Shown piece after piece: positions 821 through 51,634 of a stretch of 64,000 nt of DNA (positions are counted from its first letter, which is position 1; every line of letters begins with the position of its first letter). The stretch is taken from IMG/VR virus record IMGVR_UViG_3300029415_000001. One strand, written 5' to 3'. The stretch is from a virus. Its lineage: Duplodnaviria; Heunggongvirae; Uroviricota; Caudoviricetes. Under the pieces are notes generated by a model. That model saw only the letters and a list, made by a program, of their open reading frames with translations. It ran no database searches and had not been told where the DNA came from. The translations under genes were made by a program, and so were the position numbers.

Positions 821-837
821 ATTGCTCTAATAAATAT
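821..837 (+). promoter_or_regulatory. C1 repressor operator-like site (ATTGCTCTAATAAATAT) upstream of uhr-hrdC-dmt
   Basis: 16/17 match to the P1 C1 operator consensus ATTGCTCTAATAAATTT. Confidence 0.6.
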
Positions 838-908
838 TGTTTTTTATGTCGTGTTTTCGGTACCATTCAGCCATCGCCCTTCAATGGGCATTTGTTTGGA
901 GTCGTCAG

Positions 909-1193
909 ATGCAGATGGAGCTAATAAGCCGCAAGGAGTTCGATAGCCGTGTAACCAGCGGTGAACTCGACAACTTGCAGGCTATCAAGGTGAAAGAAGG
1001 CTTTTGCCTCATTGGGAATCAGAGCGGAACAAATCGCGTTTTTATGCTTCGCCGTACGGATTTGAAGCCATTTGTCTGGAAGAACGAAATTGGTCCCAGC
1101 TCATACGCTCAAACGAGGGGGTGCCACAACCTGGCCTTTTTCTACAAAGACGAGCTTTCTGTGGTTGATATTCAAGGGTTACAACATGTTTAA
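909..1193 (+). CDS. hypothetical protein upstream of hrdC (Uhr-like)
   Basis: ORF 837-1193 in track; start moved to ATG 909 (GGAG 8 nt upstream); end overlaps hrdC start. Confidence 0.4.
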
Positions 1194-2091
1194 GCACTGG
1201 AAAAACATTACTATTTATAAACTTTCTCGTGAGGCGGATCTGACCGACTTAGAAGATAAAAAGAAAATGATCCTTTTCACGCCATGCGGTAGTCAGGATA
1301 TGGCCAAGTTCGGTTTTGTATCTCCATTTGGTGATAATTCCGAAGTTATCGCTATGCATGGAAATGGTTTTATCCTTGTTGAAGCAAAGCGCGAAACAAA
1401 AATTCTTCCCCCGCCGGTTATCCAGCGAGCTATTCAAGAAAAAATTGAAAAACTTGAGCAAGAACAAGCGCGTAAACTGAAGAAAACAGAGAAGGACTCC
1501 CTGAAAGACGAAGTTCTGCATTCTCTTCTGCCACGGGCTTTTTCAAAGTTTTCTGTTATCCAGGCGATCTACGACGGTTCAACTAAACGTATCTATATCA
1601 ATGCCAGCGCGCGGCAGGCAGAGGATATGCTCGCGCTTATGCGTAAGTCTCTGGGTTCTCTTCCTGTTGTTCCCCTGAGTGTTGAAAATCCCATTGAATT
1701 AACGCTGACCGACTGGGTACGTGATGGTAGTGCTCCACAGGGATTTCAAATGGGGGATGCGGCAGAACTTAAGGCAGTGCTTGAGGATGGCGGTATTGCC
1801 CGAGTGAAAAAGCAGGATTTGGGAAGCGATGAAATTTCCACACACCTGGAAGCTGGCAAGCTCGTTACTAAGTTGGCACTCGACTGGCAGAACCGCATTA
1901 AATTTACACTGGACCATAACTTCAGCCTTACCAGCGTCAAATTTGCGGATGAATTGCTTGAGCAGAACTCTGATATTGATAGTGAAGATGTTGCGCAGCG
2001 ACTGGACGCAGATTTCTTCCTGTTGACCAGTGAAATTTCGTGCCTGGTTGATGCTCTGGTAAATGCCCTTGGTGGAGAGGCTAAGCAGTGA
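1186..2091 (+). CDS. hrdC: RdgC-like recombination-associated protein (P1 HrdC-like)
   Basis: Strong similarity to E. coli RdgC across the length ([11 protein letters not shown]..., [23 protein letters not shown]..., [14 protein letters not shown]...); start set at ATG 1186 rather than track start 1072. Confidence 0.85.
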
Positions 2092-4352
2092 AAGAGCTGT
2101 GCTATGGATCTGTTTGCAGTGGAATTGAAGCCGCGAGTATTGCCTGGGAACCGTTGGGTATGCGTCCGGCGTGGTTTGCTGAAATCGAGCCTTTTCCATC
2201 TGCCGTTCTTGCGCACCGCTGGCCCCATGTCGCCAACCTTGGCGACATGACAAAACTTGCCAAAAAAGTCCTGGCTGGGGAAATCGAATCCCCTGATGTG
2301 CTCGTCGGGGGTACGCCTTGTCAGGCATTCAGTATCGCGGGCTTACGTGGTGGGCTTGATGATGAACGCGGCGCGCTAACTTTGAAGTATGTGGAGCTTG
2401 CAAATGCAATTGACGACAAACGGTCTGAGTCCTTCCTCAAACCGACAGTTATCGTCTGGGAAAATGTCCCAGGAGTCCTGTCATCGGCAGATAACGCCTT
2501 CGGATGTTTCCTTGCCGGATTGGCTGGAGAAGATGCGCCATTTGAACCAGGTGATCGACCTGAATCAGGAAAAAGTAACGCGTTCTGGCGGTGGGATGGC
2601 AAAACCGGTTGCCATGCTCCAAAGTGGCCGCAGTGTGGTTGTATTTATGGACCGCAGCGAAAGGTGGCCTGGAGAATCCTTGATGCCCAATACTTCGGAG
2701 TGGCACAACGACGCCGACGCGTGTTTGTTGTCGCAAGTGCTCGAACAGACCTCGATCCCGCAACGGTACTTTTTGAGTTCGAAGGCGTGCGCCGGAATAT
2801 TGCGCCGAGCCGAAAAAAGAAGGAAATCGCTTCCGCCATTATTGCAAATGGCGCTGCAATCAGTGGCGAAAGCCTAAATCCATGCCTACATGCTGACATG
2901 CCACCCGGTATGAAATCGACGAAAGCCGTAAACGCTTTCAGGATGGCAGCATTTGGGGAATATATTGACGATGAAACCGCATCGACAGTAAAGGCAAGAG
3001 ATTTTAAAGATGCCACTGACCTTGCCGTTTTTAGCAGCACAGGAGCAGGTTTTTGGTCAGAAGGGCATGGTACATTGCGGGCACGAGAGCAAGAAAGCCA
3101 TGAGCATCTTGTTACATTGGCTTTTCCTGAGCGTATGAGCGGTACACAACATGCTGCAACTAAGAATACTTCACCATCTCTAATGGCTAAAAATCCAACA
3201 GCTGTTTGCTATGAAGTAAGAAACGCAGAAGTAGCTGTCCGCCGTCTTACCCCTGTCGAATGTGAAAGGCTGCAAGGTTTTCCTGATGGGCATACGTTGA
3301 TCCCGACGGAAAAGCGTAAAAAAGTTAATTCAGATGAACTGGCATATCTTCGCAATCACTATCCAGATTTAAGCGAAGAAGAGGCCGCGATGCTTGCAGC
3401 TGACGGACCGCGTTACAAAGCGATCGGCAATAGTATGGCAATACCAGTAATGCGCTGGATTGGCGATCGGATTACTAAGGCCGTATGTCGGCAGAAAGAA
3501 GGAAGTGAAACAAAAGAGCGAAAAGTTAAACCAGCGGCAGAATTCGAACGGTCCATATTCAAATGGGCTGGTGGAAAATTTGGTGTTCTGGAACAAATCT
3601 TTCGCTATTTGCCAGAAGGGAAGCGCCTGATCGAACCTTTTGTCGGTGGCGGAGCTGTCTTCACGAATGCCGGATACCAGGAAAATCTGCTAAATGATGT
3701 GAATGCTGACCTGATTAACTTTTACAAGACTCTGCAACGCGAGGCGCATTCACTTATCACACTGGCGCATCGTTTCTTCCAGGACTACAACACACAGGAA
3801 GGATACCTGGCAGTACGGAATGCGTTTAACAAACAAGTCTATGATGATTTACATCGCGCAGCGGCGTTTTTGTTCCTGAACCGACATTGTTTTAACGGAT
3901 TGACGCGTTACAACCAGGCCGGTGAGTTCAATGTCGGTTACGGGAAGTATAAAACTCCGTATTTCCCATTACAGGAGATGGAAGCCTTCCTCGGTGCGGA
4001 AGGGCGGTCTGAGTTTGTATGCGGTGATTTTGCAGCGGTGATTGAAGCTGCCGGAGAAGGAGATGTCATCTTTTGCGATCCGCCGTATGAACCGCTTCCA
4101 AATACAGAGGGATTCACGAACTATTCCGGTCATGACTTTAAGTTTGAAGAGCAAAAACGCCTGGTGTCTCTGTTGACGGATGCTCATCGTCGAGGTGCAA
4201 AGGTTCTCATTACTAACAGTGGCGCGCCAAACATCAGAGAGCTTTATCATGACAGTGGCTTCAGAGTGGAACCTCTTTTTGCCAGACGTTCTGTGTCTTG
4301 TAAGGGGGACACTCGAGGTGTAGCTCATGACGTTTTGGGTATATTGCTCTAA
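2088..4352 (+). CDS. dmt: bifunctional DNA methyltransferase: N-terminal C5-cytosine MTase motifs (GTPCQ, ENV) and C-terminal Dam-like N6-adenine MTase motifs (FxGxG, DPPY)
   Basis: 754-aa ORF; motifs [35 protein letters not shown]; position after hrdC as in P1. Confidence 0.85.
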
Positions 4353-4370
4353 TAAATTTATTAGTGTAAT
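4343..4370. promoter_or_regulatory. pair of overlapping divergent C1 operator-like sites at the dmt 3' end
   Basis: ATTGCTCTAATAAATTT (4343-4359, +) overlapping AAATTTATTAGTGTAAT (4354-4370, reverse orientation). Confidence 0.6.
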
Positions 4371-4533
4371 ATCGCCTCAATGAATCGTGATTTATAGAGC
4401 GATTTAGCTGTTAGCCGCGACAGGCGCGGCGGTAAGCATGGCTGGGCCTAGTCCTCCCAGACAAACCACCGAGTTGCCAGGTTGACCATGCGCCTAAGTG
4501 GCAACGCCGAAGTGCGTTACGAGCTTCCAGTTT

Positions 4534-50635: not shown

Positions 50636-50926
50636 CCACCAAAAATAACCCCGGCGGCTGCCGGGGGTATCGTTAACTATTATCGCCTTCGCCTGCGTGC
50701 CATATATTTGCGCACCGCGCGGCGTGGACAATCTGAAGCGGTTTCTTTCTGTTGCATCAATCTCGCAGCCATGCTCAAAAATGTCAGGCACAGCCGAAGC
50801 TCGGCATACAATAGCGGTTCCAGTGGCCACGTCTCATTGAGCACATATACCGCCATGAAAATCGAGTCAAAAACTATCGCCGCCAGCGATAACTTCATTG
50901 TCGAAAGTCGGCGGAGCTGCCGGAGT

Positions 50927-51484
50927 TTATTCATTGACCAGCCCCGTCAGGCAAAGCTGGCGTTCATTTTCACGGCGAATCTTTAACCCAGGCAGGGGGA
51001 CGCCGTTACTGTTCACAAAATCAGGGAGATGGTTACACATATTCACCCATTCCCCTTTCTGCGCCCACTTGTGGATGGACGTTTCGACTCGCATGCCTCG
51101 CGCTTTGCTGTAGTAGGCCCGTAAACTATTGCATCCCATATTGAATGCCGCGCTTGTCATTGCGCTGAAGGCATTATCGGGCATGTCTTTGCCCCGGAAG
51201 TGCTGGTTAATACAGCGTTCAGCGATCAGGATATTCTTTTCCCAATCAGCGGCGATTTGCTGGTCTGTTTTTCGCACACCCGGCGTTACCCCGTGTGTAT
51301 TACCGATCCCGTCAGTCCATACCCCTGCCGGGCACATGTATGGATCACGTCGGCAACCTTCAGCGTTTCCGATAAGCTCAAGCCCCGCCTGGTTGGTTCG
51401 CACATTGCCATTACCCATCACGATGGTAATCATCACCGCGATAGCGCAAATTGCACCGCCTCCTGCGGCTGTTTTTCCCTTCAT
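50927..51484 (-). CDS. lyz: SAR endolysin (lysozyme) Lyz
   Basis: 185-aa product matching P1 Lyz as recalled (MKGKTAAGGGAICAIAVMITIVMGNGNVRTNQAGLELIGNAEGCRRDPY...); track ORF over-extended to 51829. Confidence 0.95.
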   Translation of the reverse strand: MKGKTAAGGGAICAIAVMITIVMGNGNVRTNQAGLELIGNAEGCRRDPYMCPAGVWTDGIGNTHGVTPGVRKTDQQIAADWEKNILIAERCINQHFRGKDMPDNAFSAMTSAAFNMGCNSLRAYYSKARGMRVETSIHKWAQKGEWVNMCNHLPDFVNSNGVPLPGLKIRRENERQLCLTGLVNE

Positions 51485-51572
51485 AAAGACCTCATAAGCG
51501 AATTTTTTACGCTCCAGGACAAACACCCATTCACAGCCATTACCGACTGACTCGATCCCTTTAGAAGGCACA

Positions 51573-51594
51573 GGATAATGCAAATCACTTGTTA
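51573..51594 (-). promoter_or_regulatory. candidate late promoter upstream of lyz (AACAAGTGA-N7-TATCCT on minus strand)
   Basis: Motif match. Confidence 0.45.
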
Positions 51595-51617
51595 GCCACG
51601 TTTCAAAGATATACATT

Positions 51618-51634
51618 ATTGCTCTAATTAATTT
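51618..51634 (+). promoter_or_regulatory. C1 operator-like site (ATTGCTCTAATTAATTT) upstream of ssb
   Basis: Consensus match. Confidence 0.55.

What the first reader, a model, noticed from the sequence alone, without database searches (positions are those of the whole stretch)
821..51634. Dispersed network of about 18 C1 operator-like 17-mers, several in special arrangements
Sites matching ATTGCTCTAATAAATTT (or a GCAC variant) occur at 821, 4343/4354, 14772, 15678, 18396/18445, 20537, 28889, 32194, 34845, 35310, 35393, 36954, 37431/37444, 38098 and 51618. Special cases: overlapping divergent pair at 4343-4370; inverted pair flanking a 10-bp-stem hairpin at 18396-18461; tandem overlapping pair with embedded TATAAT upstream of ref; a site heading the icd/ant-like module. 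No operator was seen upstream of ban (7255-7540).
Basis: partly seen in the sequence, partly recalled or inferred. Interest (0 to 1): 0.4.

Follow-up and report, generated by a model that had tools for sequence, protein, structure and literature searches.

The report
Phage P1 repressor operator network
The scattered 17-base motifs are the well-known binding sites of the C1 repressor that keeps a P1-like prophage silent, so the finding is real but already textbook; the only additions are two probable extra sites that the reference P1 genome lacks.

Summary
The window is a P1-like phage-plasmid, about 98% identical to phage P1. Its C1 repressor is 279/283 identical to P1 C1. The motif ATTGCTCTAATAAATTT is the published asymmetric C1 operator consensus. 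It occurs 17 times at up to 3 mismatches, against 0.34 expected.

The "divergent pair" at 4343-4370 is Op72ab, which is itself the ban operator, so the remark that ban lacks an operator is a misreading. The second member of the "tandem pair" (37444) is only the -10 box of P2ref.

Two sites are not annotated in P1 but look genuine:
- 32195 is a paralogue of Op51. It heads a second isrK/C4/icd/ant antirepressor module inserted between pacB and c1.
- 36954 lies between cre and c8. Its core is kept in 82 of 89 P1-like contigs, but it carries a C7-to-A change in P1 and P7.

Sites at 39663, 47768 and 31403 are probably fortuitous. Verdict: an already known system, correctly recognised, with minor new members.

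The parts
821..837 (+). Odmt / Op68 operator (ATTGCTCTAATAAATAT), 25.9 bits; abuts the -35 of Pdmt
   Evidence: Identical to the P1 protein_bind feature at 65145-65161
4343..4359 (+). Obana / Op72a, a perfect consensus and one half of the bivalent ban operator
   Evidence: P1 68667-68683, annotated 'controls expression of ban'
4354..4370 (-). Obanb / Op72b (ATTACACTAATAAATTT), overlapping and divergent half of the ban operator
   Evidence: P1 68678-68694; 23.3 bits
14772..14788 (-). O26 / Op82 operator between gene 26 and pmgL
   Evidence: Identical to P1 78528-78544; 24.8 bits
15679..15695 (-). Oppp / Op83 operator (TATGCACTAATTAATTT; P1 has C at position 1)
   Evidence: P1 79435-79451; 19.2 bits
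18396..18412 (+). OpmgRa / Op86a operator overlapping the -35 of PpmgR
   Evidence: P1 82152-82168; 23.6 bits
18422..18447 (+). 10-bp-stem hairpin followed by a T run, lying between Op86a and Op86b (terminator-like, after pmgQ)
   Evidence: 100% complementary arms, fold z = -6.8
18445..18461 (-). OpmgRb / Op86b operator, the inverted partner of Op86a
   Evidence: P1 82201-82217; 21.1 bits
20537..20553 (+). OpmgT / Op88 operator; in this window it faces the 3' end of a type I hsdR gene instead of pmgT
   Evidence: P1 84293-84309; downstream replacement shown
28889..28905 (+). Olpa / Op94 operator controlling the late-promoter activator gene lpa
   Evidence: P1 89904-89920; 19.2 bits
32195..32211 (+). 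Operator not present in P1 (TTTGCTCTAATAAATTG, 21.5 bits). It is a paralogue of Op51/Oc4 and overlaps the -35 of a P51a-like promoter (-35 TTGTGT 32208-32213, -10 TACATT 32231-32236). It heads the second immI module.
   Evidence: Identical in RCS47 and JL22 although those modules are only 83-85% identical. The core is invariant in 9 copies while the 5' flank varies. It is absent from Stx-phage and D6 homologues of the module.
32286..32476 (+). isrK-like leader RNA (32286-32363, with a terminator at 32342-32358) and C4 antisense RNA (32389-32476)
   Evidence: Rfam isrK 60.8 bits and C4 75.9 bits, both above gathering score. The a'/b' loops are complementary to the a1/b1 and a2/b2 sites.
32531..33867 (+). 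icd-like gene (32531-32752) and antirepressor gene (32749-33867), overlapping by ATGA as in P1 icd/ant1
   Evidence: Icd is 80% identical and Ant 55% identical to P1 Icd and Ant1. Pfam ANT and ORF6N domains.
33900..34751 (-). c1 repressor gene
   Evidence: 279/283 identical to P1 C1.100
34835..34862 (.). Bivalent Oc1ab / Op99ab: strong Oc1a at 34846-34862 (-), weak Oc1b at 34835-34851 (+). It overlaps Pc1 (autoregulation).
   Evidence: P1 94166-94193
34862..35071 (-). coi, the C1 inactivator gene
   Evidence: ORF; collinear with P1 coi 94193-94402
35018..35034 (-).
   Evidence: P1 94349-94365; 14.6 bits; invariant in 57 contigs
35310..35326 (-). Oc1d / Op99d operator within P1coi
   Evidence: P1 94641-94657; 25.5 bits
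35393..35409 (+). Oc1e / Op99e operator next to P4cre
   Evidence: P1 94724-94740; 24.6 bits
36954..36970 (+). Unannotated operator-grade site (ATTGCTCTAATTCTTTG, exact 11-nt core) between the cre stop codon and the c8 start codon
   Evidence: The exact core is kept in 82 of 89 cre-anchored P1-like contigs, although the 17 nt just upstream are scrambled. P1 and P7 carry ATTGCTATAAT, and neither record annotates an operator there.
37431..37447 (+). Oref / Op2a operator between the -35 and -10 of P2ref
   Evidence: P1 1962-1978; 20.8 bits
38097..38113 (+). Omat / Op2b operator (CATGCACTAATAAATAT)
   Evidence: P1 2628-2645; 20.3 bits
40352..40600 (-). lxc (bof), the corepressor that strengthens C1 binding
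   Evidence: ORF; collinear with P1 lxc 9750-9998
51618..51634 (+). Ossb / Op21 operator in front of ssb
   Evidence: Identical to P1 21015-21031; 25.7 bits

Best explanation
The 17-mers are the operators of the C1 repressor of a P1-like plasmid prophage.

How it works. C1 is encoded at 33900-34751 and is helped by the corepressor Lxc (40352-40600). It binds each asymmetric site as it does in P1. Most sites overlap or abut sigma-70 promoters of early and lytic operons, so one repressor shuts off many scattered transcription units at once: dmt, the ban operon, pmg genes, lpa (the late activator), ref, mat, ssb, coi and c1 itself. Paired sites give stronger binding or looping: the bivalent Op72ab and Op99ab, and the inverted Op86a/b.

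Compared with reference P1, this phage very probably has two further members.
1. An Op51-type operator at 32195. It places a second, independently specific C4-RNA/Icd/Ant antirepressor module under C1 control.
2. A site at 36954 in the cre-c8 intergenic region.

Shown here: the motif, its statistics, its one-to-one homology to annotated P1 operators, its selective conservation, and the cognate repressor gene.
Inferred from P1 biochemistry, not tested here: actual C1 binding and repression at each site.
For: Identity of the element and its repressor:
- The window is about 98% identical to P1.
- C1 is 99% identical to P1 C1.

Motif statistics:
- 17 consensus matches against 0.34 expected.
- 20 PWM sites of at least 14 bits against fewer than 1 expected.

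Homology to known operators:
- All 17 operators that the P1 record annotates in the homologous stretches are present at the collinear positions. Fourteen are identical in sequence and three differ by one base.
- The literature reports the same consensus and 22 dispersed operators (PMC8546580).

Selection:
- Across 28-89 P1-like IMG/VR contigs, operator positions 1-11 vary in 6 of 88 columns, against 149 of 512 flank columns (Fisher p = 2.4e-6).

Site 32195:
- It is homologous to Op51 and its promoter.
- It is identical in RCS47 and JL22 despite 15-17% divergence of the module.
- Its core is invariant in 9 copies.
- It is missing where the isrK-C4 unit sits in Stx phages, which lack C1.

Site 36954:
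- The exact core is kept in 82 of 89 contigs while the adjacent spacer is scrambled.
Against: - No binding or expression data exist for this particular phage.
- The PWM was built from P1 sites, and the window is nearly P1. The match of the 17 homologous sites is therefore homology, not independent prediction.
- Contigs used for the conservation test are phylogenetically related, so the Fisher p-value overstates independence.
- No strict sigma-70 consensus was found next to 36954 or 32195 by the simple scanner. The promoter at 32195 rests on homology to P1 P51a.
- Op88 (20537) has lost its downstream gene in this window, so at least one site may be functionless here.
- P1 and P7, the only experimentally studied members, carry the C7-to-A form of the 36954 site, and nobody has reported C1 binding there.
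Confidence: 0.95

Rival explanations
1. Only the 17 sites homologous to annotated P1 operators are functional. The extra sites at 32195 and 36954 are relics or fortuitous matches that C1 does not use.
For: - Neither site is annotated in the P1, P7, RCS47, JL22 or 673R5 records.
- P1 and P7 carry a C7-to-A version of the 36954 site.
- No strict promoter consensus lies beside either site.
- Other extra hits (39663, 47768) do turn out to be unconstrained.
Against: - Chance expectation is 0.004 per window for a 21.5-bit hit and 0.04 for an 18.6-bit hit.
- 32195 is positionally homologous to the proven Op51. Its core is invariant across 9 module copies with variable flanks.
- The 36954 core is kept in 82 of 89 contigs next to a fully scrambled spacer.
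- Accepted operators with the same exact core tolerate equally divergent 3' parts, for example Op55 and Op86b.
Confidence: 0.25
2. The repeated 17-mer is bound by, or serves, something other than C1. Examples would be a dispersed promoter element for a phage-specific transcription factor, or a structural repeat. Its resemblance to the C1 operator would then be incidental.
For: - The core contains a -10-like TCTAAT.
- Many sites overlap promoter hexamers.
Against: - The sites are the same sequences at the same positions as those deposited as C1 binding sites in P1. The P1 record cross-references earlier GenBank entries for Op21, Op68, Op88, Op94 and the c1 region.
- P1 late promoters use a different, separately annotated -22 motif recognised by Lpa.
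- The cognate repressor, its corepressor lxc and its inactivator coi are all present.
Confidence: 0.03
3. The hits are chance matches to an A+T-rich pattern in an A+T-rich genome.
For: Low-scoring hits (8-13 bits: 37444, 31403, 8894 and others) occur at about the rate seen in simulated sequence.
Against: - 17 hits against 0.34 expected; 0 of 100 shuffles reach this.
- 20 sites of at least 14 bits against 0.95 in Markov simulations.
- There is core-specific purifying selection.
Confidence: 0.01

Closest known systems
C1 repressor operators (Op sites) of bacteriophage P1 / P7: Op2a,b, Op21, Op68, Op72ab, Op82, Op83, Op86ab, Op88, Op94, Op99a-e
   Same: - Same 17-bp asymmetric consensus.
- Same positions relative to the same genes.
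- Same bivalent (11-bp offset) and inverted arrangements.
- Repressor 99% identical.
- Fourteen of 17 sites are identical in sequence to P1.
   Different: - One-base changes in Op83, Op86a and Op99b.
- Op88 has lost its downstream pmgT operon to a type I hsd locus.
- There are two extra operator-grade sites (32195, 36954) that neither the P1 nor the P7 record annotates.
P1 immI region: Op51 (Oc4) - P51a/b - c4 antisense RNA - icd - ant1/ant2
   Same: The 32195-33867 module has the same order, as follows.
- An operator overlapping the -35 of the promoter.
- A leader with a1/b1 sites.
- C4 RNA (Rfam 75.9 bits).
- a2/b2 sites over the icd ribosome-binding site.
- icd (80% amino-acid identity).
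- ant overlapping icd by ATGA.
   Different: - It sits between pacB and c1, not at the canonical immI locus.
- Its nearest relative, 673R5, carries the canonical immI locus in addition.
- The C4 recognition loops and their targets differ: AGGCCAA / CCTTGGAC here, CTGTCAA / TCACTAAC in P1.
- The central part of Ant is replaced by an ORF6N domain.
- The leader matches the Rfam isrK family.
Gifsy-1 / Stx-phage isrK-C4-antirepressor units (IsrK of Salmonella, PMC4825925)
   Same: About 79% DNA identity to window 32287-32563 (isrK plus C4) in many Stx-converting phages. Both RNAs are annotated in LC710660.
   Different: Homology starts exactly at isrK. The C1 operator and promoter upstream (32195-32285) are absent from the lambdoid phages, which have no C1.
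Phage D6 (P1-supercluster plasmid prophage) icd/antirepressor region
   Same: It carries an icd-like gene and an antirepressor with a homologous leader (69% identity).
   Different: No P1-type C1 operator is found within 1.5 kb on either side of the D6 match to this module (no PWM hit of at least 10 bits).

Membership tests
P1-type C1 repressor operator network | 17-bp asymmetric sites matching ATTGCTCTAATAAATTT, far more frequent than chance | tested here: met
   17 hits at up to 3 mismatches against 0.34 expected; 20 PWM sites of at least 14 bits against fewer than 1 expected
P1-type C1 repressor operator network | The cognate C1 repressor is encoded by the same element | tested here: met
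   ORF 33900-34751 (-) is 279/283 identical to P1 C1.100
P1-type C1 repressor operator network | Sites are collinear with the experimentally mapped P1 operators and overlap the same promoters | tested here: met
   All 17 operators annotated in the homologous P1 stretches map to the window. Promoter hexamers are as annotated in AF234172.
P1-type C1 repressor operator network | Accessory immunity genes are present: coi (inactivator) and lxc/bof (corepressor) | tested here: met
   coi at 34862-35071 (-) and lxc at 40352-40600 (-), both within blocks collinear with P1
P1-type C1 repressor operator network | Purifying selection acts on the operator sequence relative to its flanks | tested here: met
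   Core positions 1-11 vary in 6 of 88 columns against 149 of 512 flank columns, p = 2.4e-6. Positions 12-17 are not constrained.
P1-type C1 repressor operator network | Physical binding of C1 and C1-dependent repression at each site | not testable with these tools
   Established for the P1 sites according to the GenBank notes and the literature. Not measured for this phage, nor for 32195 and 36954.
immI-type antirepressor module (operator - C4 RNA - icd - ant) | C4 antisense RNA gene upstream of icd/ant | tested here: met
   Rfam RF01695 scores 75.9 bits (gathering score 45) at 32389-32476
immI-type antirepressor module (operator - C4 RNA - icd - ant) | C4 loops a'/b' are complementary to a2/b2 over the icd translation start, and to a1/b1 upstream | tested here: met
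   AGGCCAA pairs with TTGGTCT / TTGGCCT. CCTTGGAC pairs with GTCTAAGG at both sites. The loops covary with their targets in RCS47, JL22, P1 and 673R5.
immI-type antirepressor module (operator - C4 RNA - icd - ant) | icd and ant genes are translationally coupled | tested here: met
   Icd is 80% and Ant 55% identical to their P1 counterparts, with an ATGA overlap at 32749-32752. Pfam ANT/KilAC domain.
immI-type antirepressor module (operator - C4 RNA - icd - ant) | A C1 operator overlaps the module's promoter (Op51 type) | tested here: met
   32195-32211 scores 21.5 bits. It aligns with P1 Op51 and the P51a hexamers.
immI-type antirepressor module (operator - C4 RNA - icd - ant) | The Ant protein antagonises C1 | not testable with these tools
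   Inferred from 55% overall identity to Ant1. The identity is concentrated at the two ends, with the last roughly 140 aligned residues nearly identical. The central ORF6N replacement could change partner specificity.

The most novel reading that the evidence does not exclude
Most natural P1-like phage-plasmids may carry a larger C1 regulon than the laboratory references P1 and P7.
- A C1 operator guards c8. It is inactivated in P1 and P7 by a C7-to-A change that at the same time creates a perfect TATAAT.
- In a sizeable subset (6 of 17 informative contigs, and 268 plasmid records), a second C1-gated antirepressor circuit sits next to c1. It has its own C4-RNA specificity, and at least three alleles were seen.

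If so, immunity and induction in wild P1-like elements would be wired differently from the textbook P1 model, and the reference phages would be partly derepressed variants.
Probability: 0.45. Interest if true: 0.3.

Novelty: already known. Interest (0 to 1): 0.12.

Why it matters
The C1 operator network is a classic case of one repressor silencing many scattered operons. Rediscovering it from raw sequence shows the first-stage reading was sound, but it adds nothing to what is known about P1.

The modest added value is comparative. Reference P1 and P7 lack two operator-grade sites that are common in natural P1-like plasmids of E. coli, which often carry resistance genes. One sits in front of c8. 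The other gates a second antirepressor module next to c1.

This could matter for predicting superinfection immunity, heteroimmunity and inducibility of these clinically widespread phage-plasmids. It also matters for annotation pipelines that transfer features from the P1 reference.

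Tried and rejected
1. It scores 9.7 bits, about 7 such hits are expected by chance, and it coincides with the P2ref -10 hexamer. Rejected as an operator.
2. Site 39663 (18.6 bits). It lies inside the SIR2_2 gene. The same codons in an 87%-identical homologue score 10.7 bits, and the match is lost in 69%-identical homologues. Judged fortuitous.
3. Site 47768 (16.8 bits, identical in P1). It lies inside the 5' codons of darB. Core positions 4-6 vary among 89 contigs, so there is no sign of constraint, although some alleles are better operators. 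Left as ambiguous.
4. Site 31403 (13.3 bits, inside pacB, identical in P1). About one such hit is expected by chance.
5. Whole-length RNAduplex energies between C4 variants and targets did not discriminate specificities. Only the loop/target motif comparison was informative.
6. The P1 genome paper (PMC523184) is not held in the library. I therefore relied on the GenBank feature table and on PMC8546580.
7. The simple promoter scanner found no strict sigma-70 match at 32195 or 36954.
8. My first conservation test used contigs retrieved with a pattern that contained the 36954 site itself, which is circular. I redid it with an anchor in the cre 3' end.

Full report
**What the window is.** Megablast places the window in the P1 group of plasmid prophages (Punavirus). 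It is 98-99% identical to RCS47, P1 and P7 over most of its length. A local alignment to three stretches of the reference record AF234172 gives the following map:
- window 1-20725 corresponds to P1 64325-84481;
- 26955-32189 corresponds to P1 87970-93204;
- 33901-35469 is the c1-lox region;
- 35470 is P1 nucleotide 1;
- 40354-52142 corresponds to P1 9752-21539.

Segments absent from P1 are 20726-26954, 32190-33900, 38931-40353 and 52143-55832.

**Check of the observation.** The consensus ATTGCTCTAATAAATTT has 17 matches at up to 3 mismatches, against 0.34 expected, and no shuffle of 100 reached this. I built a PWM from the 20 C1 operators annotated in the P1 stretches I fetched. It gives 20 sites of at least 14 bits in the window. 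Expectation is 0.95 in Markov simulations and 0.70 from the exact score distribution. Every coordinate in the finding holds a site, four of them shifted by one base.

- 4343(+) and 4354(-) overlap divergently with an 11-bp offset.
- 18396(+) and 18445(-) are 13-nt perfect inverted arms around a 10-bp stem and a T run.
- TATAAT follows the 37431 site.
- However, the 'second' tandem site at 37444 scores 9.7 bits, a level at which about seven hits are expected by chance. It is simply the -10 hexamer of P2ref.

**What the sites are.** The P1 record carries protein_bind features labelled 'phage repressor C1'. All 17 such features in the homologous stretches map collinearly onto window sites:

| Window site | P1 operator |
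|---|---|
| 821 | Odmt / Op68 |
| 4343 / 4354 | Obanab / Op72ab |
| 14772 | O26 / Op82 |
| 15679 | Oppp / Op83 |
| 18396 / 18445 | OpmgRa,b / Op86ab |
| 20537 | OpmgT / Op88 |
| 28889 | Olpa / Op94 |
| 34835 / 34846 | Oc1ab / Op99ab |
| 35018 | Oc1c |
| 35310 | Oc1d |
| 35393 | Oc1e |
| 37431 | Oref / Op2a |
| 38097 | Omat / Op2b |
| 51618 | Ossb / Op21 |

Fourteen are identical to P1 and three differ by one base. The repressor gene is present at 33900-34751 (-) and is 279/283 identical to P1 C1.100. The genes coi and lxc are also present. The literature states that C1 binds 22 operators dispersed over P1, with exactly this asymmetric consensus (PMC8546580).

- The 'overlapping divergent pair' is the bivalent operator Op72ab, which the P1 record annotates as controlling ban. 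ban starts at about 7541 in the window. It lies at the end of a long plus-strand unit containing a dicF-like region, three tRNAs and small ORFs.
- It is true that no operator lies in 7255-7540, but this does not mean ban escapes C1.
- A terminator-like hairpin at 4533-4552 lies within the dicF-like leader. Control of ban by Op72 therefore rests on the P1 annotation, not on anything I could test.

**Evidence of function beyond homology.** I retrieved P1-like contigs from IMG/VR with anchors outside the operators and aligned 40-nt flanks around eight sites.
- Core positions 1-11 vary in 6 of 88 columns (mean heterozygosity 0.005).
- Flanks vary in 149 of 512 columns (0.049); Fisher p = 2.4e-6.
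- Positions 12-17 vary like the flanks.

The contigs are related to one another, so the p-value is optimistic. The pattern is nonetheless clear: selection acts on ATTGCTCTAAT.

**Extra site 1: 32195-32211 (TTTGCTCTAATAAATTG, 21.5 bits; 0.004 expected per window).** It lies 4 nt after the pacB stop codon, at the start of a 1.7-kb insert absent from P1. The insert contains:
- an isrK-type leader (Rfam 60.8 bits);
- a C4 antisense RNA (75.9 bits);
- an icd homologue (80% amino-acid identity);
- an antirepressor with ORF6N and ANT domains, 55% identical to Ant1 overall, with the identity concentrated at the two ends and the last roughly 140 aligned residues nearly identical.

Aligned with P1 immI, the operator and the following hexamers correspond to Op51 and promoter P51a.

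The module's C4 loops (AGGCCAA, CCTTGGAC) pair with the sequences TTGGCCT/TTGGTCT and GTCTAAGG, which lie both upstream and over the icd ribosome-binding site. RCS47, JL22, P1 and 673R5 have different but internally matching sets, that is, different immunity specificities.

The operator is identical in RCS47 and JL22, whose modules are only 83-85% identical to the window's. Its core is invariant in nine copies while the bases just upstream vary.

Stx-converting phages share the isrK-C4 unit from window 32287 onward, but not the operator.

The module is common. In PLSDB, 268 plasmid records cover at least 80% of it, and 6 of 17 informative IMG/VR contigs have it. The nearest relative, 673R5, also retains the canonical immI locus with an Op51 site.

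Venturini et al. (PMC6906374) noted an 'ant' insertion between pacB and c1 but mention no operator or RNA. My literature searches found no description of these.

I conclude that this is a genuine Op51-type operator on a second immI module: a new member of a known kind.

**Extra site 2: 36954-36970 (ATTGCTCTAATTCTTTG, exact 11-nt core, 18.6 bits).** It lies between the cre stop codon and the c8 start codon. P1 has ATTGCTATAATTATTTG here, and so does P7. Neither record annotates an operator at this position. Among 89 contigs retrieved through an anchor in the cre 3' end, 82 keep the exact core, although the 17 nt between cre and the site fall into two unrelated families. Only three contigs carry the P1 allele. 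This is the behaviour of a selected element. The C7-to-A change in P1 and P7 creates a perfect TATAAT. The same change recurs in Oref in 8 of 79 contigs. I found no convincing promoter beside the site, so its target (c8?) and mode of action (occlusion or roadblock) are inferred only.

**Other hits.**
- 39663 lies in a SIR2-like gene and is not conserved in homologues.
- 47768 lies in the 5' codons of darB, is identical in P1, and shows no core constraint.
- 31403 is at the chance level.

**Verdict.** The phenomenon is the textbook P1 C1 regulon, so novelty and interest are low. The residual value is the pair of unannotated operator-grade sites and the second, C1-gated antirepressor circuit in natural P1-like plasmids. 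These need binding and expression experiments.

Noticed in passing
window 20537-26954: A type I restriction-modification locus (hsdR 20801-23917, then hsdS and hsdM, all on the minus strand) replaces P1 pmgT through humD. The Op88 operator and its promoters now point into the 3' end of hsdR, making it an orphan operator or a possible antisense promoter. The P1 record itself notes homology of these flanks to sequences around the EcoDXXI hsd locus.
   Followed up: partly
window 38931-40353: A 435-aa SIR2_2-domain protein gene (38993-40300) occupies the slot between mat and lxc where P1 has its type III res/mod genes. Other P1-like plasmids hold 87% and 69% identical SIR2 alleles in the same slot, which suggests a defence-gene hotspot.
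   Followed up: partly
window 32286-32545; L005, L006, L054, L003: The C4 recognition loops and their two target pairs covary between the window, RCS47, JL22, canonical P1 immI and canonical 673R5 immI. This gives at least five C4 specificities, and two different ones coexist in a single phage.
   Followed up: partly
window 15668-15695: Op83 (15679, minus strand) has a weak plus-strand partner at 15668 (9.1 bits) with the same 11-bp divergent overlap as the bivalent Op72ab and Op99ab. The partner resembles Oc1b. Op83 is annotated as monovalent in P1.
   Followed up: no
window 36954-36970 and 37431-37447; IMG/VR loci L009-L101: The same C7-to-A substitution, which turns ATTGCTCTAAT into ATTGCTATAAT (a perfect -10 hexamer), recurs independently. 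At the cre-c8 site it is found in P1, P7 and 3 of 89 contigs. At Oref it is found in 8 of 79 contigs.
   Followed up: partly
loci L044 (+2440/+2456 from the cre-c8 site), L040 and L042 (+2180 to +2309): Some P1-like IMG/VR contigs carry further strong operator pairs, including perfect-consensus sites, in the variable region downstream of mat. Accessory cargo there can apparently also be wired to C1.
   Followed up: no
window 53412-53481: An RNA-OUT (IS10 antisense RNA) match of 98.8 bits indicates an IS10 element inside the non-P1 segment 52143-55832.
   Followed up: no
window 4467-4568 and 5279-7169: A terminator-like hairpin (4533-4552) in the dicF-like leader sits between Op72ab and ban. 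In addition, the middle of the ban operon differs from P1: the tciABC region is replaced, including a 275-aa ORF at 6324-7151 of unknown function.
   Followed up: no
window 28889-28912 and 37431-37455: Olpa and Oref both continue with a second ATTGCTAT starting 13 nt after the operator start. In Olpa this supplies the -35 hexamer (TTGCTA) and in Oref the -10 hexamer (TATAAT).
   Followed up: partly
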